NCBI GenBank assembly: GCA_965178125.1
Contig: OZ237756.1
Coordinates: 124,001-188,000 of the forward strand
DNA length: 64,000 nt
Direction: 5' to 3'
Source: Bilabrum cf. latius
Lineage: Eukaryota
The notes under the pieces are model-generated. The model saw only the letters and a list, made by a program, of their open reading frames with translations, ran no database searches and was not told the DNA's origin. Below are positions 1-64,000 of this stretch, in pieces; the first letter of the stretch is position 1, and the number at the start of each line of letters is the position of its first letter. Made by a program: the position numbers and the translations under genes.

Positions 1-2115
1 AATGCATCGATATACATCCTACGCGGCGACATTGTGAATCTGGCTCAGCGGGCTCGCCTGCTGCCGCCAGCTGGCGTGGTGCTGGAGGTGGGCAGCTTCC
101 ACGGCATGAGCGCGATGACGATGCTCATTGCACTGCGACGTAGGGGCAACTGGGCAGCACGGGTCCTATCGGTGGACCTGTGGATGGACCCGGATGATGC
201 GCAGAGCGCAGCCGCATCGGATTCCAGCCAGCAGTGGTACGCTTTCTAGCCCGCATGGCACAGGGCCCGGCACGTGGATGCATACACCGGCATGGTGGCT
301 TCTTCAGGTGCGGGTCACCAGGCGTACATGCTGAGGATGCACTCGGTGCAGGCGGCCTCGTTTGTTCCCCGGGGAACAGTGGATCTGCTGTTCATCGACG
401 GTGACCACTCCAAGGCGGGGGCCTACGCAGACATGGCTGCGTGGATGCCCACGGTGGACAGAAGGACGGTTGTGGCCGGCGGGGCGGCGGATGGTGATGG
501 TGGGAGGGACGACCCGAAGCCCAACGAGCTGCTCATGGGGGGCCGGGTGCTGCTGCACGATGGCTCGCCCAGTCTGCATCTTCGCTGTGGGCGTGGGCGG
601 GAGAGGCCATGTGCTGGACACGTGAGGGAGCAAATGGAGGCAGGGCAGTTGTCTGGCACCGGAGAGTAGGAGTTCGGTGTGATTGCTGCCGCATCGCAGC
701 TGTGCTCGTTGCACCAGCAGTGCTCAGTGATCACCACGCAGAATACGTAGGTGTACGGGCATCGAGCTATTCGGTTCTCATCAGCGGCAGGTGATGCAGC
801 GATGCGGTCCATTGGATGGAACTCGACCCAGCTAGCCTTGGATCTTGCTGGGGCTGGCGAGCCTCGCACGTTCTGGCCGTTGTCGCCTGTGGCAAGTGCG
901 GCCGGCCAGCTCACAGAACCTTCGCGACAGCTTACCTTGCAATTTCCACTGGAAAGCAGCGCGATGTCAGAGATCGTGTCACCGGCATGGACCATGCGAG
1001 CCTGTGTGGAGGACCTTGATGCATCCGGAGGCGGCGCAACTCCTAGCAGCAAGAACGGCTTGCCCCCTGGCACATCCGGTATCATCCGCTACCGCACCTC
1101 GCATCAGGCGCTTGCAGGTCCGTACAGGAGTATCGCTGCAGCGCTCGCCATGGTGTCCGTCGCTGCATCGACAGAGCGGGGAGCGGAGGACGGCCCCAGT
1201 GTCAGCAGGGACAGCGCACAGTCGATCATGCTGGAAGGGTGCAACTGCCCGTTGACCTCATCGGAGAACGTGATGGCGTCTGTGGTTGCTGCTGCTGGCG
1301 CTGAGTCTGTCGCAGATGGATCCACCGGGGCAGCTGGCGCAGGGTCAGACCCGAGGCACCTTGTGAATGAAGTATTGAGGCAGCTGATGGGCTTCAAGGG
1401 GTCATATCCCGCGGACTGGTCCGAAGCGGTGCAAGCCATGGGGCAAATCGCGTCCAGAGTAGCGGGGCGAGCGGCGGACATGTGCTGCAGGATGCCCATC
1501 GAGTACGACAGAGCAGCTAGCGCACCTGTCGGGCCGGTGGGTGCAGCTGAGGCCAATGTGTTGGACATGGACGGGCAGCCTATCCATGGGTGGCACAGCC
1601 TAGCATCCACTGTGCCACTGAGTAAGACGACAGGAATTCCTAGGTGCAACAAGATTGAGATAGCTGAGAGCGCTGTTGTGGACATCGCTGCCAGTGCAGG
1701 GAGGCCCAACCAAGGCATGCCACTGGCTCTGCCCAGCGAGTCGCAAGGTGCACTGAAGACTGAATCTGCGAGTGATGTGGGTCATGCGCGCACGACGACT
1801 GTACAGTCTGTGTGGGGCTCTCGGTCGGCTCTGAAGGGTGTCTTGCAGTCCCAGCGGTTCGCGCTTCAGGATCACGACGAGCCGATCATGTGGAGCTTGC
1901 GGGACAGCCCTCTAACCGCGTGGGCAGAGGCATGCGGTGTGCATGGGAGCGGCCCTGAGAGCATAAGTGAGGCTGGAGACAGTGCAATGTTGGGCGCATG
2001 TGCTGCTTTGAGAGGGCGGCAGATTGAAGGTGCCGGCAAGCAGCCTATAGTGGATCGGGTTGCGTCCCACCCTTCTCTGCCAGCTTATGTGATCCCTGAA
2101 CGTTGGCGACAATGA
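1..2115 (+). CDS. Class I SAM-dependent methyltransferase (Methyltransf_24-like) with long C-terminal extension; 5'-partial
   Basis: ORFs 34..249, 274..669 and 751..2115 share one frame, separated only by TAG (247, 667, 748), and end at TGA 2113-2115. Motifs VLEVGSFHGMSA, VDLLFIDGDHS and GGRVLLHD. The frame is open to base 1. Confidence 0.75.
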
Positions 2116-3187
2116 GTCAGTCTTGAAGTCCCTTGGATTCCCCGTCGGTGAGGCCAATCAGTTCTCTGGGATTTAGGTCACGCGTTGGGTACAGTAACAG
2201 TCCGAGGTGCAGGATCAGATGCGAAGCAGCGAAGCGGGGGAGGGATCGGTCGAAGAGGCCAGTCCAGCGACGCACGAGCCAGGAACGGCAATCATGATGG
2301 GTGAGAAGTACGAGGGCCTAGGAGAGAAGGATGTTGTCTTTGCTGCATGGTAGCTGCATTAAATGCCGATGCCCAGCTACACGTGTCCTCGTTTGAAAGT
2401 TGAAAGATCTAGCAAGCGCTGCTCCTCACCGCCCGTACAGCACACGGCTCGACTGGCTCAAGTCTCATTGTGACCTACCTTGTTCCCCACCTGCAAGTGC
2501 TCGGGTGATCCGATCCGGAGCCACTCCGATCACTCAGAGCCGCCCCCATCCGGACCACCTGTTACCCGGCACCCACACTTCAACCTGCCCCGTCTGAGTC
2601 TCCCACTTCCTATCCCTCGTAGCAACCAGAGGACCTCACCAGCCGCCTTCTCTATTTACCCTCCTCCTGCATGTTGTTCCATCATCCCTATCTCCTCCAC
2701 TTAATTGGATAACTATTAAATGGCGCCGCGATCCAATCCACCGATGGCAACGGAACCAACGCATCCGCGAGGTCAATCAATCCAAACATAACTCGGCCAA
2801 GCCAAAAACCAACTCGTGCTTTCCGGCTTGTTGCAGCCATGCAGCTATCTACAAACTGTGTGTCCGGGTGGCTTCTCATGTTGATCTGATACTCCTTCTG
2901 GCGGGCGGCACGGTCGAGGCTATACTCGTGAGCCGCGCTGATGGGCCGGGACAACCTTCGGGCCACGAGCTCTTTTCATGTGTTGTTGATGTAGTGTCTG
3001 CCCTTTGCAATGACCAGTTGCATCCTATGGATCGAGCTGCGCGTGTCAGTGAGCATGCCGACTCCCTAGCACAAGATCCACCACACCGGATCTGAGGATC
3101 TGATCTGGATATGGCAAGTCAAAATTTGTACGGCAGGAGTCTTCACACGACGCAAAATGATTCGTAGACTCTAGCATTGCCTGCAAA

Positions 3188-6100
3188 TCAACCAGTAGAG
3201 TAATTGGCCACCATTCGGTCCACACCATCATCGCCCACGGCAAGCAGCACGGTCAAGCGGTCCCCATCCTTGATCGTGCCCAGCTCGTCCTCCAGCAGCT
3301 CCAGCGCCATGCGTCGGACTGCCGATGTGCTCACAGCATCACCCACCAACAGCCGCCGCCCCTTGGCCTTGCTGCCGCGGAACACCACCATGGAGGCAGG
3401 GCCGCAGTCTACCAGCTACTTGGTGGACCGTCGCAGTTCGCTAAAATGTGCGTCACGACCTAGCTTGGCTGCAGCGCTGGCCCTGGCACAGCTCTTGTAC
3501 ACGTCCCGCACATTGGCGGCGACCATATTCATCTAAACCGTCACACGCTTGAAGACATCATCGTCGGCGTCCATTGGCCCACATGCGATCGTGACTCCGA
3601 TCTGTTCCCCGGAGCCGGCGCCCGCCCTGGTGGAGCGCCGGGGCCGAGAGGAGCCCACGGATGCCCTGCGGCCTCCTCTTGCCTGTCTCCTAGGCGCTTG
3701 CTCCGCCTCCGCATCGTCCTCGTCCTCGTCCCCGTCCTCGTCATCGTCGCGCTCTTCATCGTCGTCCCTGCTACTCATCGCAGGACGGCCCCTAGACCTG
3801 GAGCGGGTCATCGCGGGAGAGGGCGCGCCCCTGCGAGCAGCATTCCCTGACTTTGATTTGCCACCGCCTTTCGCGCGACCCCTGGCCGGAGGCATAGCGG
3901 CTCCTTTCCTCTTTGCCTTCGACTACGGTCTAGCCCTACCCTTGCCCTTGCCCGGCTTCCTCCCCTCATCCTCCATGGCCAGAGCCAGCTCCTCCAAGTC
4001 CTCGCCGCTCACGATGCACCCGTCCAGCCGCCTCCTCGCAGCCTTGAGCGACACCCCGTATTCTTCCTCCAGCTCGCCCTGCAGCTCCTCCAGGCCTTGC
4101 AGCAGGGCCTCTTCCCCCGCCTCCATGCCAGCCTCCTCCGCCCGCCGACTGGACCTGCCTCTCCTCCTCGCCCGCCTCGTGGCCCGGTCAGCGGCCCTCT
4201 CGGCTGCATCCAGCACGTCCTCGGCCCCGCGGACCAGGGCTACGGCCGCTGCGTTCGAAGCACTGGGGCCGGCGGAGGCAGCTGTCTCATCCTCGTCCTC
4301 ATCCTCCTCGTCGTATTTGCGTGATCCCTTGCGAGAGCCTCGCTTGGACTTGTCCTGGACCCCACCACGAGACTTCGCCTTGGTCACGGCATCATCCTCC
4401 TCCTCCTCGTCTTCCTCTTGATCGCTTCCGCTGTCAGCTGCCGTATTTCGGTCGTTTCCCTTGCTACTTCTCTTACCCCCTCCACTCTTGCTCTGCTTCT
4501 TCTTGGACCGCTTCCCGCTGGCGGCGATCTGCCGCATGTCGCGGAGAACTTCTGGCCCATCACTGTCACTATCGCTATCGCTTCCTGCAGCTGCAGCCCT
4601 GGCGCCACCAGCCCGCCGCCTCTTGACTCTGCCCCTCCGACCGTGTCCAGCACCTTCCTCTTCCTCGTCCTCCGCGTCGCTACCGCTGCCACTATCACTT
4701 TCGCTGCCATCTGACCCGCTGCTCGCCTGCTCCTGGTCCTCGTCGTCTCCAGACCCTGATCCTCGCCGTCCCCGTCCCCGTCCCCGCCCTCGTCCGCGCC
4801 TTGCAGGCCCCGACCCCTCAAGCCGGCCCAGCAGCTCTTTCCCCTGCTCTGCTCGCATGAGATCGTAGGCGTCCAGCTGCAGACCCGTGGTGCTGCCGAT
4901 GCCCTCAATCCCCGCATACTTCCCTAGGTTCGAGAGCGTCTGGTTGAACACCCGCACGAGCACTCGGACGCGAGGCAGATCCTGCCATCGGATGGATGCG
5001 GCAGAGGAAGAGGAAGAGGAAGAGGAAGAGGAAGAGGAAGAGGAAGAGGAAGAGGAAGAGGAAGAGGAAGAGGAAGAGGAAGAGGAAGAGGAAGAGGAAG
5101 AGGAAGAGGAAGAGGAAGAGGAAGAGGAAGAAGCAGCAGCGCTGCTGCTTCCAGTGGCTTGCCTCCTCCGATTTCGGTGGCGCCTCGCCCTCTTCCGCTT
5201 CATCTTTCTCCTCCTTTTCCTTTTTGCACCACTGCTGTCGCTGTCGCTGTCTGAACCAGACGAGGAGCTGTCACTGCTGGTGCGGGAACTTCGGCTGCTG
5301 GTGCTAGACATCGACGATGAATCGCTGCTGCTACTACTGTCGCTATCGCTGCTGCTGCTCCCCTTGTCTTCCTCCTTGCTCGAGCCAGCCCCCGCTCCCG
5401 CTCCCGCTCCTATCCCCATGACCGAGAGACTCACCTCTCGTTCGAAGGAGATCGAGCTGCGCTCCGTCCGCGACACGAAAGGAACCTTCTCTAGCCTCGC
5501 GTCGAAGGCTCGCCTCGCCTGCGACTCGGCCTGCATCAGCGACTGCTGCAGCACCCTGGCATGCAGCCCACTGACCGAGTCCGTCACCAGTACCCACTCC
5601 CTCGAGCTGCCCAGCGACTCACCGAAGGAACCCGGCGGTGCCACCCCGAGGCCCCCGCTCCCCGCGATGGCGAACGTGATGGTCCTGGCAGGCACCCTCC
5701 CGCTGGCCTCCTCAGCCGCGTCCCTGTTGGACTGCACGGCCTGAAGCCCCCCCTCCCCACCCGCCTTCTCCACCCTGATCTCCCCGTCTGGTGCCACCAC
5801 TATCTTCTGGCCTGAGCGCACCACCTGCGCCAGTCGGTCGAAGAGTGCCCTCACACGCACGTCCCTCTGCGACATGGCCTTGCGCCGTAGCCCGAATTCG
5901 AACCGCGGAGGCACGCCACGCTGGTTGAGCACGGGCCGCAGCCACTCCTCGTACGTGGCGGGGAACAGGATCCGCCCGTCCGGCACAGTCATGGTGTTGA
6001 TGGTCGCCGCCACGCGCACCTGCGCCTCTGCGAGGTCACCGATCAGCTGCCTCTCCTCCTGTCCCAGCTGCGCGAAGGTTGCGTCGTCGTCGTCCGCCTC

Positions 6101-7433
6101 CACGTCCCTCATCCACACGGGGTGTCCGTCTAGCAGCACCTGCCAGGCCTGCGCCTCGGTGGGGGGCGCCTGTCTGTTCCTCCTTGCCTCCTCCTGCATC
6201 TCCTCCCTCACCGCCCGCAGGCAGTACTTGACTCTGTCGGCCAGGTCCTGCTCCGTGCGACGGGGCAGCAGATGGCCCTCGCGGATGCCCTTGAGCCCGC
6301 ACGCGATCATGTCGGCAGCGCGGGGTCGAATCCCGTTGACGCTCTTGATGAACTGCATCACGTAGTCCACCTCCCTCTGACGGAAGGCCATCCGCCGGCC
6401 GTGCCTGAAAGCGATCCGCCCAGCGGTGCTATGGAATCCGCCCAACCCTGCCCCTGCCCCTGCCCCTGCCCCTGCCACCGCACCTGCAGCCCCAGACCCG
6501 CCCGCTAGCACTGCACCAGCCCCCACTGCACCAGCCCCCGCCCGGCCCGATCCCCCGCTCGACGGCCGTCGTCTCCCACGTGCGCTTCCACTCCCGTTTC
6601 TCTGCTTGCTCCCGCCCCGCTTGCTGCGCCCGAGATCATGTTGAATAAGGTCCCTTCTCTCCGCTGCTTCCTCGAGAGTCGCGTTGTGATCCCCCTCTTC
6701 CTCCTCCTCCTCCTCGCCGTCTTCGTCAATCGCGCTGCCAGACCCCCTGTCCTTTCTCTTACTGGCCCTCGCTCCGGCGGCTGCCTCGTCGTCCCGGTGC
6801 CTTGGCTCCACCTCCTCCTCCTCCTCTTCGTCGTTGTCGCCCTTGGCCTCTTCGTCGAAGCCTGCCACTGCGCCATCGTCCGAGTCGTCCGCAGTCCCGG
6901 CTGCAGACGCCCTGTTTCGCCTGGGCCTGCGCTTGTATTCATCTTCCCCTGGCAACGCCAAGTCACTGTCTTCCATGGATGGACTGCCGGCTTCTTGAGC
7001 TTCGCCATCTTCCTCCTCGTCATCAGAGGATCCACGGATCGCGGCTCGTGTAGGTGATGATTTTGCTTTCGAGGACCCCCCTACGCGCCTACTTTTTACG
7101 ATGCCCTCTGCTTTGCTGCCAGATTCGTCAAGCCCTCTGGCTTGATCTTGCTCGTCAATACTCTGCTGCGAAGCGGCAGCCGCTTCCTCACGTTTTCTCT
7201 AGGCTGCAAAATGTAGTGTATACACGACTAGGAATTGGGTGGAAGGTAACAAGGCGTGCGTAAGTCGACCGAGGTTGAGGCAGGTACGAGCAGTTCAGGA
7301 CCAGGTGCAACTGCATGAAGCAGAGGGTGCTGCGAAGCTGTGCCTGCAATGAGTGAACGAGGTCCGTGTTTCCCAACAGATGCAAATATTAAGTTCCAAT
7401 TTACTTACATCTGGTACGTTTGGCCCCTGGCAT
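3188..7433 (-). CDS. Large acidic/Ser/Arg-rich low-complexity protein with a possible Myb/SANT-like segment (probably nuclear)
   Basis: ORFs 3923..6976, 3533..3895 and 3188..3391 are one frame joined by TAGs, ending at TGA 3188-3190. Predicted exon 1 7433-7409 (MPGAKRTR), intron 7408-7204 (GTAAGT...TTTGCAG). Segment FRQREVDYV...PRRTEQDLADRVKY weakly resembles Myb. Contains basic NLS-like runs. Confidence 0.65.
5004..5129 (+). repeat. Perfect (GAGGAA)21 hexamer microsatellite encoding poly-Ser on the minus strand
   Basis: Directly visible; lies inside the 3188..7433 CDS. Confidence 0.95.
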
Positions 7434-7565: not shown

Positions 7566-8950
7566 ATGGCCGCAGCAGGCGGAGCTAGTTCAAAAATGGT
7601 TGATGATGGCGCTGAATTGGCTGCGGATGAGGTCGTAGATGTATTGTAGGCAGAGGAAAAGAAACTCGGTATTGCTTAGCGAATCGGCGACATCATGCAC
7701 TTGCTTCGACTTCCAGAATCTGAGGTGCCATCAGCCGAAAAAGAGGAACAGAGAAATGAATTGCTTGATATCATCAAAGAACGAGGTGAGGGCACTTCTG
7801 GACCCAACTTTCGTTGGCCGGCCAAGCAGAGCGACGCCTGCCATCCTCGATCCCTGGCGTCGCCACTAGTAGCCTTCGGATACGTTCTGTGGATATTTTT
7901 TGTACCGAACTCCTCTGATTCGCAGGTATGGCCCCGCTCTGGGAAAAGTACGGTAGCGAACTGGGCCTCCCTTCCGGTGGCCCAGATTTCGATGGCATCA
8001 AGAAAGCAAACGAAGAAAAGGTGAAGGAATTGGAAGAAAAGATCGAGGATGCGAAGGAGAACTACGGAGATGCCGAGGTATTCGAGGGCATGAAGGATCT
8101 CGCGGAGCACGTGGCCCGAACGGGTGACGTGGAGGCCGCCGTGGAGGCATACGATGCCATCCCGACCAAGCTGTGCTCGACGGGCCAGCGCGTGGACTTG
8201 GAGATGGGCAAGACCCTGCTGCACTTCATGGTGGGCGACGCTCGATCCGCCCGCGCTACTCTCACCCGGGCCCAGGAACTCAACGAGAAGGGCGGCGACT
8301 GGGACAGGAGGAACCGAATGCAGGTGTACGAGGCCGCGTACAAGATCATGGCCAGAGACTTCGAGGGCGCTGCCGCCCTGCTTCTGGACAGCATCGCCAC
8401 GTACACCTGCTACGAGATGTTCGACTACAAGCGCTTCGTCTTCTTCACGGTCATCTGCTCGCTCCTCACCCAAGACCGGCCTGTGCTCAAGCGACAGGTC
8501 GTGGACTCGCCGGACGTCAGGGCCGTGCTGGACGAGCTGGGCCCGCTCAAGCCGCTGCTGCACTCCTTCCACGAGTGCAAGTTCGACCAGTTCATGGCGG
8601 CGCTCGTGGCGACACACCCGCTCATCCTGAGGGATAGGTTCTTGCGGGTGCACGCCAGCCACATGGTGCGCGTGCTGCGAGTCCGTGCCTACAGGCAGTT
8701 CCTTGGGGCCTACAAGACGGTCACGGTGGAGGGCATGTCCAAGGCATTCGGCGTGGGGACTGATTTCTTGGACAAGGAGCTGAGCGGGTGCATCGCCAGC
8801 GGGAAGCTGAGCGCCAAGATCGACAAGGTGGAGGGCGTGGTGGAGGTCACGCGGCCCGATGCCAAGAGCGCGCTGTACGGGGAGCTGCTCAAGAGCGGGG
8901 ATGCCCTCATCAACAAGATGCAGCGGCTTACCAGGTTCGTGAACGTGTAA
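7566..8950 (+). CDS. RPN7: 26S proteasome regulatory subunit RPN7/PSMD6
   Basis: Motifs GGDWDRRNRMQVY, LLDSIATYT, KLSAKIDKVEGVV and GDALINKMQRLTRFVNV. Exon 1 7566-7785 has TAGs at 7647 and 7677; intron 7786-7925 (GTGAGG...CGCAG). Ends at TAA 8948-8950. Confidence 0.95.
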
Positions 8951-9004
8951 ATGCAGCCTATACATGACCATATCGTAATCATCGTGCACGGAGGCAAACC
9001 TATT

Positions 9005-29085: not shown

Positions 29086-29421
29086 CGCTGGAGCAGACCG
29101 GCTGAACAGGTATTTGCATGCATGGGTTTTCGTTGAGCGTCATGTAGTTTCATTAGAAGGGCAGGCCTTGGTGACGTTTCTCTTCGGCGACGTCTGTATC
29201 AATCAATTGTGACGTGGGGTTTGCTATTGGTCGGCGTTCCGACATTTTCTGGAGGTGTCACGCTTCATTGCAGCGATTGCGATTTGTCTCGTAGACCACG
29301 CAACGATCAGCACCTTTTTGCTACAACTGTTCTATAATTGACCTGGTCGGAGAGGCGTGATATCGAGAACGTTGAAGTATCGACACTTTGCAAATAGAAA
29401 TCTATCACACCGCTGGATTTC

Positions 29422-34301: not shown

Positions 34302-34335
<34 letters not shown>

Positions 34336-40514: not shown

Positions 40515-40638
40515 GGCTGCAAGAATTGTACGTAAATGATGGACAAGAACGGACACATTGAAACTGTACCTTACATTTCTCACGAACGTTCATGAATCAC
40601 AAAAGTGAAGAAAGGGCCTTTCCTGTCGAACACCAATC
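40515..40638. promoter_or_regulatory. Probable compact bidirectional promoter (124 bp)
   Basis: Inferred from the divergent starts at 40514(-) and 40639(+). Confidence 0.4.
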
Positions 40639-46885: not shown

Positions 46886-46953
46886 GGTGCCGACGAAGCT
46901 GCACAGACGCGGTGGAATGAGTGCAGTTGCAGTTTGCGACCAAACTCTGGTTT

Positions 46954-48074: not shown

Positions 48075-48215
48075 GATGCGTGGGTGGTTTGGTCGATACG
48101 GGCGCAGGATTGCCCATGCAGATTGGCACCGAGCGCGCGACATGAAACATACGCCTAGATCGATGGAAACTCTAATTCTGAATATGCCTTCATGACAGAT
48201 CAGAGCAGGTTCAAA

Positions 48216-53126: not shown

Positions 53127-55382
53127 ATGGGATGCGCGGCATCTACGCCAGCTGCGCTGGGCTGCACCGCCGAAGTGGAGACCGAACGAAGGGTACGTCG
53201 TGTATCGCTTTGCAGACTATGCTTCACAATGCGAGGTTGTCAATTCAATTATCACAATCATGCTGTGGTGATCCATGTGGTTTTTCATTCTTTGCAGAGC
53301 ACGACGGGAGCCTTGCAGTCTGCAACTAAAGCCAGCGATTCGGTCGAGTGGTGCCCAGGTGACAACACGAAGCAGCTAAGGACATCATCCATCCATACTG
53401 GTATCGATTGCGAACAAGACACATCTGATCGTGCAAAACAGAGCGATTAGACGGGGCGTTACCGCGTGAATCGCGACTAGTTTCCCTGCTCACAAGAACG
53501 ATCGCTATCTCCAAGCCAAGCTGGTATCTTGTACAGTTACTGGGCAGTCTGCATACAACGGACGCCATCTTCGAGGGTTTCATTCGCTCCCGGCGCACCA
53601 GACACAAGCATCGTAGTGTCATGGTTCAGCGAAGCGGACACGAAACTTGAAGCGGTCAGACTGCTCCAAGGTCAACAAACCTCGCCTCTGCCGGCAGATG
53701 CAGACCTAGATACTAAAACTCCTACAAGTACTTTCAAAGACAGCAGTACGGAAGTTTCAACAAAAGGAATGGTTGCAGGGTGGGGCCTCTCATCAGCTGA
53801 GAAGGCAGAGTGCGGTATATCCGCCCCGAGCCTATTGCACGTGTCGCCGGTAGGAAATTTTGATTATTCGAGTGATACACAAGCCTGCACCGGGAACTTT
53901 CGAGGCACGGAGCATCATAATTTATCTGCTGGGATGGCCGCGCCCGACAGATTCAACGCTGAGAGGCTCCGCTCCGAACTGAGGCTGAGAGACTTGACGC
54001 ATACCCGAACGCAGATAGCGGTGGCTAGCACGACCGAAATGCAGGTTCCTTCGCATTGCTTCCCGTTGCCCCGGGGGCTCAGAGCTCGGCCTGTAGGCGT
54101 GGCGGTAGATGCCCGGCGGCGGCCGGCGTAGGCCAAACCGGAATAGCCGGGTGCCGGCCAGCCTGAGGTTGGGTGTGGCAATGACCGTCCCCCAGTGCTT
54201 TCCAACCTACCAGAATACCCTGATGAGGAAGGGGGTCCGGACTTAGATGACTAGAATCATGTCCCACATATGCCCGGCATGGAGGTGGGAGCCGGCGCCG
54301 GAGGGGCAGGGCAAACGGAGGGGCAGGCATCTGCCAGTAGCATCTCAGACCGCAGCCGAACAGGGACAGGCAGCTTCGTAGACATGCGGCTGAGCAGCCC
54401 GTCGGATGCCAGCTTCACGAGTTTCTTCGGAAAAGCTGTCGGCAAGAAGGGGTAGAGCAAGACCAGCGAACTTTCATTGGGGTTGGCTTAGAAGGTCTCC
54501 TCTGGCGCACTCGGCAGGTCCAAGGCCGGGGGCAAGACCACGGGCAAGGGCTGGGCAAGAGCAGCAGGAGGAGGCTCAGCACACCCGCCCGCGGCAGCAG
54601 CTACACTTATCTAGGAACAAGGACCTAGAGCAACACCAGGAACATGGGCAAGGACAGGGACAGCGATAGACAATCGCGGCTCACTAGCAGCGGTGAGTGC
54701 CCCATCTCCACTTCCTTCCAACCAACGGCCGCCCCCGAGTCCATCACCTCCGAAACAAATCTCCAAAGTGAAGCCGTCGCACCGTGTGAGGCGCTTCAGC
54801 ACCCGGGCACATGATTGTTGGGCCACAGAACTGCCACAACCTGCTGCTGCGGAACCAGCCGTACGCGATGGCTACTATCGGTTGTGCCCCGCGGAGGTGC
54901 TTGTTCCCCAGGGAGCCGACCTTCACTTGTTCCGATCGGGGCACACCCGCAGCCAGTCCGCGTTCAGGGGGGGGCGAAGGGACAGCGGCCGGCCAGAGGT
55001 AATCTCGCGGTGGAGGTCTGATTAGTACGCTGGGACTGCTGGGTTTAGTGGTCCCAGCGCCGGCGCGGGTTCTTCAGGCGACTACAACTTGCGACTAGAT
55101 CATGACAGACAGCGCGAGAGCGTAATGTCAACTAAAGGTAGAGGCCAAGGGCGCTGGAGGAGAGAGGCAGGCAGCATGCCAGTGGGGGGCGCCGGTGGTG
55201 CACGTGGGGAAGTAGGAAGGACTGCTCCCCTGCGGCCGCTCTTCCTGCTGCGGCTGCCAGGGCCCGTGTGGCCCTGGCTGCTCCGACGGGAGGATTTCCT
55301 CCGGAAGCTGCGCAAGTTCCTTGGTCTTGCCACACTGGTTCTAGTCCGCTTCGATGTGCGCATCGGATTGGGAGGCAAGTGA
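53127..55382 (+). CDS. Uncharacterised protein, paralogue A (MGCAAS acylation-type start, conserved N- and C-terminal blocks)
   Basis: ORFs 53088..53450, 53529..54131, 54270..54455, 54693..55025 and 55089..55382 form one frame joined by TAGs. Probable intron 53193-53297. Similar to 55673..58525. Confidence 0.7.
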
Positions 55383-55672
55383 TCGTGCCGCTCGCATTGA
55401 ATTACGTGGCTCGCATCCGAAAAGGCTCACCAATACATTCACTGTAACTAATTTAACAATACTGGTTGGTTTTTTATGGCATCTATCCCTTCAAGAGTAA
55501 GCTTGACCGAATTGACTGCAAGGAAAAATGTGGTGACGCCGAATATTTCTTGAAGATGAAGCAAACAATTGTGGCACCAAAAGTCGAGCGACCTTCCCAG
55601 ATCGTTGCGACTGCATTGGCGACTTCGCGAGCGTCTATAGTGAACAGAACGGTACATCACATACATTTTGTT

Positions 55673-58525
55673 ATGGGATGCTGCTCGTCTGCACATGAAA
55701 GCCGGGTACACGTGAGTAATGTTCATTTGAATGTTTGTTTCCCTGGACGAGCAGGCTTGCTTGAATGTCATCCACCACATCGCCAGCTGACTGCACGCAT
55801 CGCAGATCAATCATCCGCATTTAGATGATAGCTCAAACACATCTACTGGATCACCGTAAGCCAATGCTATCTCAAAAAGGCAAGAAGGATGCGTCTCTTC
55901 ACCAATCGCGATACTTGAACTGATCGATGCATCCATGCCTGAGTTCGCAGGCATCGTATCAATTGTGTCGACTTCCCGCGGCCTAAAGATGAAGTTCATT
56001 CGTGCTGGTCCGACAAAGCTCCTGCTACCAGCCTGTGGCTGCTGAGTGTTCCGTAGCAAGACAAGCGCAGGGTGCTCTTCGCTCCTCGCTCTCGCGAGAA
56101 AGACATGCTCGAGACATGGTTGAATCGAATCAATCATGCAATATAGCGTGTACTGGACGATCGGATGGCACGAGCAAATCGCTCTGGTGCTGCACGCTCT
56201 GGCAGCCTTGTACAGGAGGGAGCCGCAGCCGAACATGAGCACAGCGCGGACATGCAGCGGATAGCGAGCGCGTTGGCTGCAGTAGCTCCTGTCGTCTCGC
56301 TGGCAGCTCCTGGTGGAGACATATCAAGCAGTGATCGCTGGCCATGGGAGCCGCAGTCGCCGGGGTCAATTCTGCTCCGACACGGCCAATACGCCGGTAA
56401 TGGACGGTAGAATGCCGAAGCTATCGGTCCGGTAAAGACCAAGCAAAATGCGAGCCAGACAGGCGCTAAAAACACACCCAAGCTCAAACGATTAATACAT
56501 CATCTGCTGCGTGGTCTTTCAGGGACCTTCGGCAACCTGCAGCCCACGAGCCCCATCCCGGAGCAGCGGAATTCGAACTTGCAGCAGCACGGCCGAGCTG
56601 TGGCAGAAGCGGGGTCCGAAGACGCTCAGTTGCACCAGCCGATGTTCGCATGGAGGCTCTCGAACGTCCTTGCCGTGCCATGCTCCATGGCTCCCGCGGA
56701 CGACGGGCCGTGGTCCGACCCCGGCTCCTCCGAGTCGCTCCCTGCGAGCACTCGGCCAAAGGGGCAGGCGAGGGCACAGGAGCGCGCAGTCGCAGTTTGG
56801 GCCTCTCCCCGGCAGCAGACAGGTGGCTCAGTTGGCGCCTCCTCGCTGGCTGCTCGAACCAAAATAGAGCTCGCCTCTCAACCAAGCGCGAGGGCAACCA
56901 ACGGACCGACCGACGTGCTGGTGGCAGTGTCAGGTTCCTCCTCCCTGCCTTCAATGAGGCAGTCGACAAGGCGGCCCCGCCGGTCATGCCTCAAGGGCAG
57001 CAGGGCCTAGGCATCCAGCGGCAGCAGGTCTTCCACTCACAGCAGCAGCTCCAGCTGGAGCTCCTCGAGTCGTGCAGCAGCAGAGACCCATGCGGCTGTG
57101 TCGGCGGCAGTGGGGGGCGAGAGCCACGCGTCTGCAGCCCCCGGTGCTGCCCTGCTCCCTGCCGGTGCGAGCGAGAGCTTGATGATGGGGGCTGGTCTCC
57201 GGTCTAGCCTAAGGCTTCCTTCTGGGTCAGGATCAGGATCAGGATCGGGGTCAGGGTCGGGGTCTGGTGGCAGCTCCGAGCATCGCACGCTGTCGGATGG
57301 GGGGCTCAAGCGGCTGATCGCGGCGTAGTGGTCGGATACCGGGGGAGGGGATGCTTGCACGCGCGGGGATGCTTGCGCGTGCAAGCGGGGCGTGCGGGTG
57401 CCAAGGGCGATGCTTCTTCCTGACAGCACCGATGATGATGATGATGATGATGACACGCAGTAGCAATCGCAAGATGACGGTGACGGCGCATAGGAGGCGG
57501 TCAAGGCGGTTCAGATCGAAATATCGTCCGAGCTGCCGGGAACCAAGAGTGCCGCAACAGGAGGAGAACAGGGTGGAAGCGGCAGTGCCCTACCACGGCA
57601 CACGAGGTGGGGCGAAGCGCAGAACCCCACGGCCGCGGGCGAAGGTAGATCCTCCAGCTCGACCGGGGCCCGCTCCTCCTCCGCAGTCAAGGTGTCTGCC
57701 TCCTTCCGTGGAATCATGGAGAAAAAGGGCCCCGAGTCCATGAGCACAGTCTTCGCCAGACAGCCCTCGGATTCGAGCAGCTTGGTGGGCACTGACGTGC
57801 ACAGCCAGCGGGTCGGGGCGGGCGGGACCACCCTCACTGGGCGCGGGGGCTCAGACCGGGGACAATCTGGATTCGACCGAATACCCACGAGTCTAGCGAC
57901 AAGACCGCTATCCCGCGGCAACAGCCAGGCGTCTGGCCGTGCCATGAAGATGAAGAGAGCAATCGCTGGCACGCCTCCGCCTTCGGAGACTGCGGGCGAT
58001 CCGCCCACCGGAGCGGGGGCCAAGCTTGGGGTTAAGCTACAGGCGGGCGGCAGTGCAAAGGGTAAGGGCAGCGCCCCCGGCCCCATGGCGGCCTCGGTGA
58101 CCATGCTACCGGTAGAGGCCTTCTTCGTGGACAAGGGGTCCAGGAATAAGGCCTCTCAGGCTGGGGCGCCTGGTCGTGCCAGCGGCGGAGGGGGGGAGAG
58201 AGGGGTGCACGCGCCTGGGGACGGCAAGGCAGGCAAGCAAGCGAGCGGATCAGGAGCAGGCGATGCAGGATCCAGTGGTGCAGATGAAAAGGGGGGCACC
58301 ACTACCGCTGGCACTAGCGTCGCCACCGCCACGCTGGAGCGGGGCCGGCTGCCCGACCTGCGGGTGAGCCCGCTCTTCCTGATCCGGCTGCCAGGGACGG
58401 CCTGGCCGGACCTGCTGCGGCGACCGGCCTTTTTGCGCGTGTTCAAGAGGTACCTGGGCCTCGGTCAGATGGTCTTGCTTCGGCTTGAGGAGTACGCGTG
58501 CCGCTGCACTGCAATGCACGGTTGA
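55673..58525 (+). CDS. Uncharacterised protein, paralogue B (MGCCSS start)
   Basis: Predicted exons 55673-55711, 55806-55855 and 55951-58525 (donors GTGAGT and GTAAGC; CGCAG acceptors). The last exon is one frame with only TAG interruptions and ends at TGA. Confidence 0.7.
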
Positions 58526-58974: not shown

Positions 58975-61900
58975 ATGTCATACCAACAAAGCCGACCTGA
59001 GCAAGAGGGATCGCAAGTTGGCTTTAGTATGAGAGATCAAGCAGGCCTTCAGGATACCCAGAAAACCTCTGGGTCTAGTTTTCAGGAGCTATTTAGGGCA
59101 TCACAAGTAGGATTGTTTGGCTTGGGATTCGTGTTGATTAAAGCTCAAGGCGTGAGGACCAAATTGTGCAGAGGAGGAGTGCCTCTTAGTTTGTTAGGCG
59201 ACACGCGGCACTTTGGGTATTCCTGGTTCCCACACCTTTCCATCGCAGCCCATCACGATTACGTTCATTCTCTCGTACATCATTGATATTGCACAGATCC
59301 TGTCTTTCCCGCTGAGCGATAACCCTCGACTGCCATGGAGAGGCTCAACTGGTCTTGGTCCGATCTCAGCAACTCTGTCATATGTCTCGGCAACAATTAC
59401 TGCGAGGGAAAATGCCGTGGTCTTCATTCCTATCCTGGTGCTGGTCATGATTTGGACCACCATGTATATTGCCTTGGCATTTACAGTTGCTGTGCGATTC
59501 AGCCAGGACTAGCCACAGCAAGAGCTATCCTTAAAAATCCTGCGAGCCGTCACACAGTTGTCAAGTGGGCCTCTGTACATTCCCATATCTACAGTACTGC
59601 TGTAGGCAATGCCATGCAATGGATCCAGCTGGCTTGGTACAGGGCTAGCGTGCCCAAGTGCATGGCACGGGGTCATTGCATTTATTTTGGGCATGGCTTT
59701 GCTAGGCGTGTCGTCGTTGGCAGTATTTTCATCGCTCATATGGGTGGATAGATCGCCGGCGTCGCAAAGCTGGGGCGCACGGCAGCATGGACGATATGGA
59801 GCTGCGATGATTGCGACCAAGCTGATCTTGGGCTTTTGCTACGCAGTTCTGAACGAACAGCTCGTTGGCACCGTCTTCATGGCGGTCGTGCTCATGACCC
59901 TCGGCATCGCCCAGGCGTACTTTCACGCTGCTGCCCCTGCTTTTGTACACCGGGACGTAAATGCTATGTATGCGGGAGGTGGATGTGCACTATTTTGTGC
60001 CTCGTTCTGCCTTCTAATTGCGCAACTGTTTGGACCAGAACAAGCCTACCTGTGCGTCTTCGTCGGCGTGCCTCTCGCGTTTGCGGCCGGCTTCTTCGCA
60101 ACTAGGAGAAGATTGGATCAGATTGGAAGAGGGCATTTGCGGCAGTGCTAGTCCCTCGCAGACGTGCACGTGTGGGCTCGCCGCCGCATGCAGAGGTACG
60201 CCGCGCTGAAGGCACTGGCAGAGCGCATCAGCGCAAACGACGGCATGGACGGACGCGGCCGCGCTGGAAGTCGCCACCCGGCTGGCCGGAATGCGCTTAT
60301 GACCTTTTAGCGCGAGTTGGACTCTAATGTTGCCAGCAACTGGAATATGGGCGTTGGTGACAGCTCTAACAGTGATGGAGAGGACAGCATCCACGCAGAC
60401 GGCGTGGCTAGCCGAGTCTCTGGCGGTTCCACAGTGGCTCGAGATGTAGACGTTTCACACGCTACATCAGCGGCGGGTGCACCTGGTCGTGCTCGACAAC
60501 GGAACCACGGGCATGGCGAGAAGCTTGGCGCCGGTGTGCCTGCCGCGCGTGGGGTGTGCTTGCTGGTGGCGGATACCCTGGATGCGCTAGATCTGCAAGC
60601 AGAACTCAAGCAAGCAGAAACTGAGGCGGAGAGGGGCTACCAGTACGGCATGGAGCGGTACAGCCAAGACGAGATGGCTTTCATACAGTACGGAGTCTTC
60701 GTGCGTCATTTTGTTCCATTCAGCTACCTCGAATGCTGCGCTCTGAACCGGGCTCTGAAGCTGAGGCCAAGGGTAGACTCGTAGTTCTTCAGTAAGTCGA
60801 CATCCAGAAGGCGCACTCGCAAAAAACGCGTGATTTGCTCAATCGTTATATTTCAGCATCCTAGTGTGCCCTGTTCTTGCCGTTCGAATTGCTACTCACC
60901 GCAGTCTACACCAGAATCCGAGCGTTGCGGGAATCTGACGGCAGTGGCCTCAGCCCCGTGGATCGTGTTCTCTTCGATGGCGCATTCAAGGAAGTCATGC
61001 AGATGCGGTTGAAGGTGTACCGTGATATGTCTACCCTGTGGGACGTCGTCGGATCGGCAGTGCCTGACATGGCCATCGCGATAGAGAAGGGCATGTCGAT
61101 CAAGGAAACCTTGGAGAGAACCGACGGCGCCTTCCGCCGACTCATGGCCATCAACCCGGAGAACACGGCCGTTCTTCGGTCGCTGGCCATGCACCTGACA
61201 CAACTTCGCTCCTAGCCTGTCAAAGCAGCCGAGCTCCTAAACAAGGCAAATCGCATCGAGGAAGCCTCCCGCAAGCAGCGCACCAAGGTGATGCAGACCA
61301 TCGAATTCGGGGCCTCCACGCAGGCCCACTCCGTGCTGGAGGACGGGGTGCCCATCGTCACCATCAGCGGGAGCGCGTTGCCCGGTTCCACCACAAAGCT
61401 GGGCGAGATTGTGCACGCGAATCTGGCGGCTGCGAGGATGTTCCAGTACGGTCCCTCGCAGCTGCTGGGCTAGAATGTGTCGATCATCGTGCCACCGCCC
61501 ATCGACGCGATCCATGACGGCCTCATTTCCGGGTTTGGCCGCAAGAAGCGATCCGAGGTTGTGAACAAGACAAGATTGGTTTTTGGGCAGCGCAAGTCCG
61601 GCTTTATCTTCCCGATGTGGCTGCAAGTGAAAGAATCGCCTCCGGATGAAGACACAGCCGAGCCAAGGTTCACAGCGGTGCTGCATGAGGTGGCGACCCA
61701 GCAGGAATTCATCATATTTGGGGGGTCCAGAGTACAGTTTCGGGTGTACGGATGCAGCTCGAACGCTGTGGACATTCTTGGCTCCGATCACGAGAGCATC
61801 AGCGCCGGAGATGTGTCCATGATCGACCGCTTCCCCTCCTTGGACACCTCATACCATGGCAGTGTGACTCTCACAGAGGCAGACGTGAAAGCAGCGGAGG

Positions 61901-64000
61901 CGCTGCCGATGGGTGCTCGACTCAGCGATATACTGGGCAGGCCGCTGCCTGGTGGTGGGCTTGCTTCAAGCCCTCGGGTCTCCCGCAAAGGCTCAATGGA
62001 CTCCGCGGAGGGGATGGAAGCTGGATTCAACAGACGCGGGAGTATCACAAAGAGGAAAAGCTCGATCGATGCAATGATACAGCCAATCAAGATCCAGATG
62101 GACGGCATGTCAGGCGTATCCAAGGTGCATCCGGAGCCAACAACGGCTGGCCGGCACATCACATGGACCAAGCAAACCCCATTCGGTTCTCGCACTGGCG
62201 CTTCTCTTGGGCTATAGCACGGGCAGGAAGGGGGCATTAAAGCGTTCATGGGTCCGCTTAGAAAGCAGCGCCATCCTGGAATCGTCCCTGCCGTCTCACA
62301 GGAGGGCGATCAGCTCTTGCTGCTCGGTTGCTGCCAGCGAGTCTCTATCGCGGCATGTCCGGCGTTCTACGTCTTTCGGTACATGAAGCTGAGGCGACTG
62401 CTGACAAGCAGTGCACCACTCATGACTGCCCGTGGAGTTGCTGGAGACCAGTCGTGTGGCGTCCAGGGCATGATGCGGCAGCGGTCAACCCTAGATAAGG
62501 TACGCAGCACCAGGACCGACACGAAGCAGCCCCATGTCGACCCGATCCCGCTTCCGTCCGCTGCTCGCATGCACGGCAGTGACGCAGACCTTTTGGACCT
62601 GGCCGAGCTGGAGGACCCGGTGGTCGGCGCTGATATCGGAGAGGGCGTCGCAGTGGGCATGAAATGCGAGAAATTCCATGAAAGGGAGCGTGACATGGGC
62701 AAGATGTAGCGAGTCGGCGCTAAAACCGATACCTCCAGTCATGATGCTACCAGTAAAAAAAAATAGGACGATGGCGATGCATCGCGCGCGAGTGCTGATG
62801 CAGGCGCCGTAGTGGCGGCGGCAATGCCCAGAACTAGACCATTGGGATTCCAAGAATCTAAGCATCAGCAATCAATCCCTTCTGACAGCTGGTAGCCGAG
62901 CGCCGGCTTCTAGAATAGCGCGACCATGGATCCAGGACCACGCAGCGAGCAAAGCGCCAACATGCCCTCGGCACGCAGCATGCGAATACCCTCTGCTCGA
63001 AGCCTAGCGAGCGGTCTTCAAGCGCGGCTGGAGGGTGCTGGGGTCATGAGCCAGCCCAGTGGGACTGGATCATCCCTCACCACTCGAACACAGATCTAGC
63101 GACTCGTGAGGAGCCAGGTGGAGCCGGAGATCCGATCCATCCGGGTCATGGTGCTGGTGCTGGCGGCTGCCGTGGTGTGTCTCGGAGTGGGCGTGGTGCT
63201 GTACATACGACAAGTGACATCGAACGTCATGAACTCCTCCTCGTCGGTCTGGGTCGCGGGGCAGAGGCGCAGCGCGCTGCAGACGGGGCTGGATGCGGTG
63301 CTGTGGCTGAGTCTCCACAGCACTGCTGAGCAAGAGCGAGTATTGGCCGGTGCCAACGATCCGTCCTCGAGGCGGCTGTCCAGGATGTACCTGCCAATGA
63401 ACAGCAAGCTCGATGCCCTCGAGTCACTGCGGAATGCGGCAGGTGAACTAGATGCTGCGCAGACTAGGCTGTTTGAATTCGATGTGGATGAGTCCGTGCG
63501 CGACTTCGAGCAAGTGCAGGCGATGGAGCTGCAGCTGCCCGGACAGCCGGCGGGTGTAGTGCCAACTCGCGTGCCGCTCGCGCAGCACGTGCAGGAGGCG
63601 ATTGCCGCCATGCGGAGAATCGCTCGGGTGCCGCCTGGGAACATTACAGCGGTGCATCCCGACGTGCAGTTCCTGACTCTGAACAGCGACTTCTGGGACA
63701 TGGCCATGGGCCACTCGCTGAACCTAAGGTACTCCGAGTTCTCTGCTCTTTTCCCGCGCACTGTGCGTACCGTGATCATATTCGGGTCTGTCGCCGTGGT
63801 GCTTTACAACGTCGTGGGAGCCGTGTTCTTTGCTGCGCTCGTGCGATCCATTGGCGCGAAAGTACAGTGGTCTCTGAGCACTCTGCTCCTTCTGCCGAGA
63901 CGGTCTGCCAGAAGACTCGCGGGGCAGGCGCGAGTGCAGCTGACTCGACTAGCGAGCGAGATGCAAGGCGGGATGGATTCCGATAGCGAGCAGGATGATG
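58975..64000 (+). CDS. Multi-pass membrane PAS-domain protein (TmcB/TmcC-like); 3'-partial
   Basis: N-terminal TM cluster (LKILRAV...LYIPISTVLL*AMPC), TPR-like region, and PAS segment IVHANLAAARMFQYGPSQLLG*NVSIIVPPPIDAIHD, with further TM segments after 63140. Introns at about 59152-59197 and 60792-60904. Otherwise only TAG interruptions. Confidence 0.75.

What the first reader, a model, noticed from the sequence alone, without database searches (positions are those of the whole stretch)
1..64000. Non-standard nuclear genetic code: UAG = glutamine, while UAA and UGA remain stops
Seen: dozens of in-frame TAGs interrupt otherwise intact genes on both strands, with no frameshifts and no in-frame TAA/TGA. 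TAGs at positions where I recall the family consensus as Gln: PES1 42336 (ITRT*AVKRLQ vs ITRxQAxxKLQ), CCT1 50581 (SG*DVRTQN vs SGQDVRTQN), RPN7 7677 (IA*), PAS 61471 (LLG*NVS), RT 22821 (AIK*LKSGKA), beta-helix 46766 (*PF) and 44900 (YQ*PPW). CAG TAG CAA also occurs near 57457. TAGs separate essential parts: the RNase T2 active sites, kinase boxes, the receiver domain, and the NDUFAF6 presequence. Known: in eukaryotes UAA and UAG are nearly always reassigned together. UAG-only Gln (equivalent to table 15) is known from few lineages, such as the fornicate Iotanema spirale and some ciliates. Inference: this GC-rich, intron-containing, aerobic (complex I) protist resembles neither, so this may be an independent and undescribed code change.
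Basis: partly seen in the sequence, partly recalled or inferred. Interest (0 to 1): 0.95.

Follow-up and report, generated by a model that had tools for sequence, protein, structure and literature searches.

The report
TAG read as glutamine in stramenopile
This stretch of a GC-rich protist chromosome, apparently from a relative of the flagellate Cafeteria, uses the stop codon TAG as an ordinary glutamine codon while TGA (and once TAA) ends genes, a rare code variant that I could not find reported for this branch of life.

Summary
The window is 61% GC and has spliceosomal introns. 16 of 18 gene models carry in-frame TAG: 92 in 16,664 codons examined, plus one in a CCT1 microexon. None needs TGA or TAA read through. 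The TAGs are in DNA contigs of two studies and in spliced contigs of two more, unedited.

The residue is glutamine.
- A 95.4%-identical orthologue has Q at all three TAG sites of the beta-helix gene.
- Q is also the commonest residue at the TAG columns of CCT1, Pescadillo, a PAS domain and one further site.
- Profiles from distant homologues alone are weak, and several columns prefer other residues. This is reported in full.

Of 17 gene ends, 16 are TGA and one is TAA (RPN7, at the homologous C-terminus). A metagenome relative only 52% identical in the orthologue also has in-frame TAGs, one at the same site.

CCT1 and RPN7 trees place the organism with Cafeteria. Six literature searches found no nuclear UAG=Gln code reported in stramenopiles. 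tRNA-Gln(CUA) and eRF1 could not be examined, because no genome is held.

Verdict: a known code variant in a new lineage.

The parts
1..2115 (+). ORF with a Methyltransf_24 domain, open at the window's 5' end. In-frame TAGs at 247, 667, 748. Ends TGA.
3188..7198 (-). Long low-complexity ORF with poly-Ser and acidic or basic runs, no Pfam match. TAGs at 3925, 3535, 3418. Ends TGA.
7566..8950 (+). RPN7 / PSMD6 proteasome lid subunit. Exons 7566-7785 and 7926-8950, with a GT..AG intron between them. TAGs at 7647 and 7677. Stop codon TAA at 8948-8950, at the homologous C-terminus.
10671..18410 (-). Giant ORF for an MFS_2-type transporter whose two halves are separated by more than 1000 low-complexity residues. 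13 in-frame TAGs, including 18311 inside the MFS_2 domain and 16679 inside a PQPxPQ repeat. Ends TGA.
18804..25526 (+). Non-LTR (LINE-type) retrotransposon ORF with an RVT_1 domain. 17 in-frame TAGs, no TAA or TGA in about 2240 codons. Ends TGA.
26887..29085 (+). Cys/Met-metabolism PLP enzyme (cystathionine lyase/synthase family). TAGs at 26905 and 28930. Ends TGA.
29338..35921 (+). Hybrid histidine kinase (HisKA, HATPase_c, Response_reg) with an intron at 31791-31930. 14 in-frame TAGs. Ends TGA.
   Evidence: (joint 31790->31931, GT..AG)
36169..39204 (-). Gene of unknown family with an intron at 38112-38246. TAGs at 37890, 37548, 36774. Ends TGA.
39736..40620 (-). Spliced gene of unknown family (introns 40177-40272 and 40362-40453). 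No TAG. Ends TGA at 39736-39738.
40639..41967 (+). NDUFAF6-like protein (SQS_PSY domain). TAGs at 40828 and 40930 in the N-terminal extension. Ends TGA.
42177..44378 (+). Pescadillo (PES1/Nop7). TAG at 42336 in Pescadillo_N. Ends TGA.
44708..46885 (-). Secreted right-handed beta-helix protein. TAGs at 46768, 46396, 44902. Ends TGA.
47019..48160 (+). Multi-pass membrane protein gene (my recollection: YhhN/TMEM86-like, not tested) with an intron at 47367-47476. No TAG. Ends TGA.
48216..50739 (-). CCT1 (TCP-1 alpha). Exons 50739-50697, 50585-50562, 50435-50363, 50246-48902, 48383-48216. TAG at 50583-50581 inside the 24-nt microexon. Ends TGA at 48216-48218.
51175..52117 (+). RNase T2. One TAG between the two catalytic motifs in the first exon (51121-51561). 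Ends TGA at 52115-52117.
53127..58525 (+). Two paralogous genes of unknown family (53127-55382 with 9 TAG, 56105-58525 with 6 TAG) that share a C-terminal motif. Both end TGA.
59300..63999 (+). TmcB-like membrane protein with TPR_TmcB and PAS domains, in two frames (59300-60790 and 60931-63999), running off the window. 13 in-frame TAGs, including 61213, 61471 and 63097.

Best explanation
The organism's nuclear code reads UAG as glutamine. UGA is the usual terminator and UAA an occasional one.

Shown here:
- TAG is a regular, fairly rare sense codon: 92 TAG against 496 CAG and 149 CAA, about 12% of Gln codons.
- It occurs in housekeeping genes, lineage-specific genes and a retrotransposon.
- It is present unchanged in spliced transcripts.
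- It corresponds to Q in close and distant homologues.
- A more distant relative shares the trait.

Inferred, not shown:
- Decoding is by a tRNA-Gln with anticodon CUA, one base change from the CUG isoacceptor.
- An eRF1 has lost affinity for UAG but kept UAA and UGA.
- In a GC-rich genome where nearly all genes already ended in TGA, TAG stops became rare enough to be captured.

The organism is a stramenopile that groups with the bicosoecid Cafeteria.
For: 1. TAG is sense. 16 of 18 gene models need TAG read through and none needs TAA or TGA. Pfam domains and homologue alignments run across TAGs. TAG is not depleted in frame (5.5 against 6.3 per 1000), while TGA and TAA are absent in frame against about 240 and 31 expected.

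2. The TAGs are not an artefact and are not edited.
- A DNA contig of a second study (X5) matches 43610-51100 and 40743-42729 with 0 other letters.
- Spliced contigs with GT..AG joints (X7, X9) carry TAGs 32319, 32397, 32952, 32997, 33276, 37890 and the CCT1 microexon TAG.
- No listed base difference lies at a TAG.

3. The residue is Gln.
- P0291 is 95.4% identical (687 of 720) and has Q at window TAGs 46768, 46396 and 44902, 3 of 3.
- P0441 (56% over 86 residues) has Q at 63097.
- PAS site 61471: Q in 6 of 11, including all 5 closest.
- CCT1 site: Q 45, K 30 of 95 non-gap rows.
- PES1 site: Q in 3 of 4 solved Pescadillos, and Q is the best of 10 residues by Pfam score.
- Site 44902: Q in the 3 nearest outgroup homologues.
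- Summed profile log-odds over 6 columns: Q +6.0, K +3.5, E +1.3, M +0.7, L -5.8.
- TAG/CAG = 0.19 lies between TTG/CTG = 0.27 and TTA/CTA = 0.10, the other synonymous first-position T/C pairs.

4. Stops. Of 17 gene ends, 16 are TGA and 1 is TAA, the latter at RPN7's homologous C-terminus.

5. A relative shares the trait. Metagenome contig L001 (55% GC) holds the 52%-identical orthologue with 3 in-frame TAGs, one at the same column as 44902. It has 18 TAGs in 5 ORFs, all of which end in TGA.
Against: Distant-homologue columns are noisy, and several prefer other residues:
- RPN7 7677: M 63, L 25, Q 4 of 99. RPN7 7647: no Q.
- MFS_2 site 18311: L and Y score 3.0 bits above Q.
- 61213: D4 N2 E T K V, no Q in 10. 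60862: T, T.
- LINE 23067 aligns with S of human L1 and 22971 with I.
- In L001, one CorA TAG sits at the M of the YGMNF..MPEL motif. Over 4 CorA columns M scores 5.0 bits and L 1.1 bits above Q.
- L001 GH65 columns give Q/T, E/K and W/Y. Two other L001 beta-helix TAGs align with L in the window.
- Over 10 Pfam columns my sums relative to Q are M +1.8, A -1.3, S -1.6, L -2.6. Profiles alone therefore do not decide.

The weight rests on P0291. Its Q residues are real CAR codons only if the collection's gene caller read TAG as stop there, as it did for the window's own entries (P0241 is bounded by two TAGs; P0002 ends just before TAG 48661).

P0291 has no TAG in 723 codons, where about 4 would be expected at the window's rate.

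No tRNA was found in the window or in L001. No eRF1 and no peptide evidence are available. TAA as a stop rests on one gene. 'TAG never terminates' is partly circular, because I read it through.
Confidence: 0.86

Rival explanations
1. TAG is a sense codon but encodes a residue other than glutamine. Met, Lys, Leu or Ser are the candidates that some columns favour.
For: Met or Leu is preferred at RPN7 7677, at MFS_2 18311 and in the L001 CorA columns. Ser is seen at the L1 position matching LINE 23067. The summed Pfam scores over 10 columns put M 1.8 bits above Q. UAG=Leu and UAG=Ser nuclear codes exist (PMC11687900, passages read).
Against: Q stands at 3 of 3 TAG sites in a 95.4%-identical orthologue. 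No L, and only 1 M, appear among 95 CCT1 rows. The candidate residues disagree with each other from column to column, whereas Q recurs in CCT1, PES1, PAS, beta-helix and site 63097. The flanking residues of TAG are hydrophilic, unlike those of L (p = 0.027) or M (p = 0.003). Six-column log-odds give L -5.8 against Q +6.0.
Confidence: 0.06
2. TAG is ambiguous. It is glutamine inside genes and also a terminator near mRNA ends, as in Condylostoma or karyorelict ciliates.
For: I read every TAG through, so a terminal TAG would have been missed. For example, CBL has a TAG at 28930, 52 codons before its TGA. Such codes exist (abstracts seen in the listing).
Against: Where homologues fix the C-terminus, the stop is TGA or TAA with no TAG at that point: beta-helix against P0291, RPN7 against P0295, and CCT1. 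A dedicated stop, TGA, is abundant.
Confidence: 0.05
3. TAA is reassigned too (a UAR=Gln code, NCBI table 6), but is too rare in this GC-rich genome to show in 64 kb.
For: UAA and UAG nearly always change together (PMC5304391, PMC11687900, passages read). TAA is rare here, 342 triplets on both strands, and ends only 1 of 17 genes.
Against: There are 0 in-frame TAAs in 16,664 codons. At the TTA/CTA or TAG/CAG ratios applied to 149 CAA codons, about 15-28 would be expected (my arithmetic), and 31 at the off-frame rate. RPN7 ends with TAA exactly where its homologues end. L001 has no in-frame TAA either.
Confidence: 0.03
4. The TAGs are not translated. They would be assembly errors, lie in introns or pseudogenes, or be edited to CAG in the mRNA.
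For: None found.
Against: The same letters appear in contigs of four studies. TAGs are retained in intron-skipping contigs, and one lies in a 24-nt microexon flanked by two confirmed joints. No TGA or TAA accompanies the 92 TAGs. An independent metagenome relative shows the same pattern.
Confidence: 0.01

Closest known systems
UAG-only to Gln nuclear code of the fornicate Iotanema spirale (PMC5304391; passages read)
   Same: UAG is read as Gln while UAA stays a stop. It is an isolated case outside ciliates.
   Different: Iotanema is an anaerobic metamonad known from a transcriptome, with a T32G change in eRF1 proposed as the mechanism. Here the organism is an aerobic, GC-rich stramenopile, and its eRF1 has not been seen.
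UAG to Gln in phyllopharyngean ciliates (two origins) and Protocruzia tuzeti (PMC11687900; passages read)
   Same: The same codon change, with UAA not following.
   Different: Those are ciliates, a group prone to code changes. The window's CCT1 and RPN7 group with Cafeteria, not with alveolates.
UAR to Gln codes (NCBI table 6): many ciliates, Hexamita, ulvophytes, Streblomastix, Amoeboaphelidium (PMC11687900, PMC5304391, 10.1101/233882; passages read)
   Same: Stop-to-Gln capture, presumably through a mutated tRNA-Gln anticodon.
   Different: Those read TAA as Gln too. Here there are 0 in-frame TAAs and one TAA terminator.
UAG to Leu in the rhizarian exLh, UAG to Ser in Scotinosphaera (PMC11687900; passages read)
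   Same: UAG is decoupled from UAA in a non-ciliate nuclear genome.
   Different: A different residue. Leu and Ser are disfavoured here.
Cafeteria roenbergensis/burkhardae nuclear genome (PMC6972860; abstract and passages read)
   Same: It is the nearest named relative in both trees. It is GC-rich (about 70%), has few short introns, and is a heterotrophic stramenopile.
   Different: That paper reports a non-standard code only for the mitochondrion (UGA=Trp). CCT1 is only 64% and RPN7 41% identical to the window's proteins.

Membership tests
UAG=Gln-only nuclear code (NCBI table 15 type) | In-frame UAG inside conserved protein-coding sequence | tested here: met
   92 in 16,664 codons. 16 of 18 genes carry one. 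Pfam and homologue alignments span them.
UAG=Gln-only nuclear code (NCBI table 15 type) | UAG positions correspond to Gln in homologues | tested here: met
   3 of 3 in the 95.4% orthologue P0291. Q is the commonest residue at the CCT1, PES1, PAS, 44902 and 63097 columns. Several variable columns disagree.
UAG=Gln-only nuclear code (NCBI table 15 type) | UGA and UAA absent in frame and used as terminators | tested here: met
   0 in frame. Gene ends are 16 TGA and 1 TAA of 17. The TAA evidence is a single gene.
UAG=Gln-only nuclear code (NCBI table 15 type) | UAG present in mature mRNA (not spliced out, not edited) | tested here: met
   7 TAGs lie in contigs that carry GT..AG intron-skipping joints, and no base difference is listed at a TAG. 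These are contigs, not raw reads, and run X7 is labelled 'RNA? (probably DNA)'.
UAG=Gln-only nuclear code (NCBI table 15 type) | Cognate tRNA-Gln with anticodon CUA | not testable with these tools
   No tRNA in the window or in L001. No whole genome is held.
UAG=Gln-only nuclear code (NCBI table 15 type) | eRF1 N-domain changes that weaken UAG recognition | not testable with these tools
   eRF1 is not in the window and no genome is held.
UAR=Gln code (NCBI table 6) | In-frame UAA as well as UAG | tested here: not met
   0 in-frame TAA against 15-31 expected. TAA terminates RPN7.
UAG=Leu code (rhizarian exLh type) | UAG positions correspond to Leu | tested here: not met
   0 L among 95 CCT1 rows. 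Six-column log-odds are L -5.8 against Q +6.0. P0291 has Q. Some single columns do prefer L.
Ambiguous stop/sense codes (Condylostoma type) | The same codon also terminates at gene ends | tested here: inconclusive
   No homologue-anchored C-terminus ends at TAG. All TAGs were read through, and no 3' ends were mapped.
Stramenopiles, Cafeteria-containing clade | Conserved proteins branch with Cafeteria rather than with other sampled eukaryotes | tested here: met
   CCT1: 17-row clade, SH-like support 98. RPN7: 17-row clade, support 98. These are FastTree trees of the top database hits only. Most rows are unnamed and no rRNA is available.

The most novel reading that the evidence does not exclude
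This is the first non-standard nuclear genetic code in stramenopiles. It would be an independent capture of UAG by glutamine in a GC-rich, Cafeteria-related clade. It is old enough to be shared by relatives only 52% identical in an orthologous protein, and it is already used by the host's own LINE retrotransposon. It would have arisen where TGA had become almost the only terminator, that is, under GC rather than AT pressure.
Probability: 0.55. Interest if true: 0.75.

Novelty: new member of a known kind. Interest (0 to 1): 0.66.

Why it matters
UAG and UAA almost always change meaning together, and the papers read here name only a handful of nuclear lineages that break that rule. A further, unrelated case makes three questions testable.
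- This case lies in a GC-rich, aerobic stramenopile that turns up in several sequencing studies, which may mean it can be cultured. Does decoupling need a particular eRF1 change?
- Does near-exclusive use of TGA pave the way for the capture of UAG?
- How fast do TAG codons spread? The window has 3 in one gene, while a 95%-identical orthologue has none.

There is also a practical point. Standard gene callers cut this organism's proteins at every TAG, and the public protein collection holds them as pieces (P0001, P0241). Annotation and contamination screens will therefore mis-handle it.

Tried and rejected
- Whole genome: none is held. A genome-wide codon inference, a tRNA-Gln(CUA) search and an eRF1 check were therefore impossible.
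- PDB search with RPN7 exon 1 alone gave only chance hits. The exon is too short.
- Naive-Bayes classification of TAG from its neighbouring residues gave negative scores for every residue and did not discriminate. It was dropped without the planned cross-validation. The simpler flank-hydropathy comparison only disfavours hydrophobic residues and does not separate Q from E, K, D, R or S.
- Pfam score differences with TAG read as each of 10 residues cover 10 columns and favour no residue clearly. T, I, V, N, D, G, H, F, C and P were not tried.
- Paralogue comparison 53-58 kb: the aligned C-terminal part holds no TAG.
- Exact look-ups of 10 further TAG-bounded window ORFs: 0 of 10 are in the collection, so no more near-orthologue comparisons were possible.
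- Synteny between L001 and the window: only the beta-helix gene is shared.
- The paper search for the accession prefix of an EukProt hit found nothing.
- Earlier findings of this scan: none for this genome or for look-alikes.
Parts without cover are not used.
- The script machine was lost. A BLAST tally of all 150 TmcB hits was replaced by an alignment of 11 chosen hits, so the other 139 hits were not examined.
The SDH remark is my recollection only.

Full report
WHAT THE WINDOW IS

The window is 64 kb of eukaryotic nuclear DNA at 60.9% GC. It has short GT..AG introns of about 90-140 nt. ARAGORN and Rfam found no tRNA or other RNA family. No whole genome is held for it.

I built 18 gene models from open frames, Pfam matches, homologues and spliced contigs:
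- a Methyltransf_24 protein;
- a low-complexity protein;
- RPN7;
- a giant MFS_2 transporter;
- a LINE-type retrotransposon;
- a Cys/Met PLP enzyme;
- a hybrid histidine kinase;
- two genes of unknown family;
- an NDUFAF6-like protein;
- Pescadillo;
- a secreted beta-helix protein;
- a membrane protein;
- CCT1;
- RNase T2;
- two paralogues of unknown family;
- a TmcB-like PAS protein.

Read-through control: reading TAG through raises frames of 1000 codons or more from 2 to 5, and the longest from 1207 to 2660 codons. Reading TAA or TGA through instead leaves 2.

In 21 coding pieces (16,664 codons) there are 92 in-frame TAGs, and one more lies in a CCT1 microexon. 16 of the 18 genes carry at least one.

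In-frame TAG density (5.5 per 1000) is close to that of the other five frames (6.3 per 1000). TGA and TAA are absent in frame, against about 240 and 31 expected at off-frame rates. The pieces were chosen as TAA/TGA-free, so those zeros are partly built in. Their lengths, and the domain and homologue alignments that cross TAGs, are not built in.

THE TAGS ARE REAL AND ARE IN THE TRANSCRIPTS

Contigs of four runs from four studies were laid on 31700-51100.
- X1 may be the source of the assembly.
- X5, from another study, matches 40743-42729 and 43610-51100 with no differing letter. That covers coding TAGs 40828, 40930, 42336, 44902, 46396, 46768 and 50583.
- X7 and X9 hold contigs that skip introns with GT..AG (or CT..AC) ends at eight places.
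- Contigs with such joints carry TAGs 32319, 32397, 32952, 32997, 33276 (histidine kinase) and 37890.
- Through two joints that frame a 24-nt microexon, they also carry the CCT1 TAG.
- Only two base differences are listed in the whole stretch, and neither is at a TAG.

Raw reads were not available.

WHICH RESIDUE

The clearest evidence is a near-orthologue. The cluster of the window's own beta-helix fragment also holds P0291 (723 aa), which is 95.4% identical (687 of 720). It has Q at all three window TAG sites...GSESQPFK......GGLGQCAS... and ...HYQQPPWS....

The collection's gene caller treats TAG as a stop. The window's own entry P0241 is exactly the piece between two TAGs, and P0002 ends just before TAG 48661. 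So these Q residues should be CAA or CAG codons.

Further support for Q:
- P0441 (56% over 86 residues) has Q at TAG 63097.
- At the PAS motif LLGxNVSIIVPPP, 6 of 11 aligned homologues have Q, including all 5 closest. The others have K, K, H, H and R.
- At the CCT1 site SGxDVRTQN, 95 non-gap rows give Q 45, K 30, E 7, R 5, A 3, D 2 and G, T, M one each.
- At the Pescadillo site, 3 of 4 solved structures have Q and human has K. Q is the best of ten residues by Pfam score.

Results against Q, in full:
- RPN7 7677 aligns with M 63, L 25, I 5, Q 4. One of the four Q rows is the closest outgroup, P0125. RPN7 7647 is variable, with no Q.
- MFS_2 site 18311 scores L and Y 3.0 bits above Q.
- The RNase T2 site is uninformative.
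- Site 61213 has D4 N2 E T K V. Site 60862 has T, T.
- LINE sites 23067 and 22971 align with S and I of human L1 ORF2p.
- In the relative L001, four CorA columns favour M by 5.0 bits, with one TAG at the M of the MPEL motif.
- Three GH65 columns show Q/T, E/K and W/Y in two solved homologues, and Pfam slightly prefers A, S or E there.
- Two L001 beta-helix TAGs face L in the window.

Summed scores:
- Over ten Pfam columns, relative to Q: M +1.8, A -1.3, S -1.6, L -2.6, E -4.4, R -4.5, K -4.7, Y -6.9, W -14.8. The sums are my arithmetic.
- hmmbuild profiles of six further columns give Q +6.0, K +3.5, E +1.3, M +0.7, S +0.3, L -5.8.

Distant profiles alone thus give Q only a small lead, about 3.5 bits over M. 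The dissenting columns disagree among themselves, whereas Q recurs, and the close homologues are unanimous.

Side evidence:
- TAG flanks are hydrophilic, unlike those of L or M.
- TAG sits inside PQPxPQ and TQxQSQ runs.
- TAG/CAG (0.19) lies between the other synonymous first-position T/C ratios, TTG/CTG (0.27) and TTA/CTA (0.10).

I put Gln at about 0.9.

STOPS

Of 17 gene ends in the window, 16 are TGA and one is TAA. The TAA closes RPN7 exactly where its homologues end (P0295).

This 16:1 ratio is about what the triplet frequencies alone would give, so it says little about preference. TAG as a terminator cannot be excluded for genes without an anchored C-terminus, because I read it through. 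The anchored ones (beta-helix, RPN7, CCT1) do not end in TAG.

A RELATIVE SHARES THE CODE

The one metagenome scan, seeded with the 53%-identical hit P0242, returned a 7.4-kb contig, L001, at 55% GC. Read with TAG as sense, its beta-helix orthologue is a 748-codon frame with three TAGs. One is at the same column as window 44902, and the frame ends in TGA.

Four more ORFs carry 15 further TAGs with no TAA or TGA inside, and all end in TGA: glycosyltransferase, GH65, CorA and one of unknown family. The trait is therefore clade-level, not a strain oddity.

P0291, in contrast, has no TAG in 723 codons, where about 4 would be expected. This may be chance together with my finding it precisely because it is unbroken, or it may reflect lower TAG use in that relative.

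WHO IT IS

Close relatives exist only as unnamed records: RPN7 at 98, 90, 87 and 69% identity, CCT1 at 99% and then 71%.

In FastTree trees of the top database hits, the window's CCT1 falls in a 17-row clade (SH-like support 98) with Cafeteria. Its RPN7, together with five close relatives, falls in another 17-row clade (support 98) with Cafeteria. Oomycetes, ochrophytes, green algae and Capsaspora lie outside.

The sampling is limited to the best hits, most rows are unnamed, and there is no rRNA. I therefore call it a Cafeteria-related stramenopile with moderate confidence.

KNOWN OR NEW

From passages of PMC11687900 and PMC5304391:
- UAG-only reassignment is reported for the rhizarian exLh (Leu), Iotanema spirale (Gln), Scotinosphaera (Ser), Protocruzia tuzeti and two phyllopharyngean lineages (Gln), with other residues in further ciliates.
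- UAR=Gln is reported for ciliates, Hexamita, ulvophytes, Streblomastix and Amoeboaphelidium.

Six full-text searches that combined UAG or TAG, glutamine, genetic code, stramenopile, bicosoecid or Cafeteria returned no report of a nuclear code change in stramenopiles. The Cafeteria genome paper mentions only the mitochondrial UGA=Trp code.

Subscription journals and supplements were not searchable, so 'undescribed' is provisional. The code itself is a known variant. The lineage appears new.

MECHANISM

Shown: TAG is translated, as Gln, in genes of every kind, including a retrotransposon.

Inferred from what is established for other stop-to-Gln codes:
- a tRNA-Gln(CUA) derived from the CUG isoacceptor;
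- an eRF1 that no longer binds UAG well;
- capture after TAG terminators had become rare.

None of these three could be tested here.

Noticed in passing
window 18804-25526 (+): A LINE-type retrotransposon has an unbroken frame of about 2240 codons only if its 17 TAGs are read as sense. The mobile element has therefore adapted to, or arose under, the host's code.
   Followed up: partly
window 10671-18410 (-): One frame of about 2580 codons encodes an MFS_2 transporter. Its N- and C-terminal membrane halves are separated by more than 1000 residues of low-complexity sequence.
   Followed up: no
window 50562-50585 (-): CCT1 has a 24-nt microexon flanked by introns of about 111 and 126 nt. Both joints are seen in a spliced contig, and the microexon carries the gene's only TAG.
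   Followed up: yes
window 3188-7198 (-): An uninterrupted run of more than 40 serine codons lies inside a long ORF rich in acidic and basic runs. It has no Pfam match.
   Followed up: no
window 53127-55382 and 56105-58525 (+): Two neighbouring genes of unknown family share only a C-terminal motif (…PLFL[LI]RLPG..WP.LLRR..FLR…), 55% identical over 51 residues.
   Followed up: partly
P0051 versus P0018 (CCT1 hits): The CCT1 filed under 'Symbiodinium sp. KB8' is almost identical to that of Cafeteria roenbergensis (branch lengths 0 and 0.002). This suggests Cafeteria DNA in that dinoflagellate assembly.
   Followed up: no
P0291 (Logan record, orthologue of window 44708-46885): A 95.4%-identical orthologue has no TAG in 723 codons, while the window has three. 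TAG use may differ sharply between close relatives.
   Followed up: partly
runs X1-X9: Near-identical sequence is held by runs filed under four different organism labels in four studies. This would fit a small flagellate that travels as a companion in other organisms' cultures. I did not pursue it.
   Followed up: no
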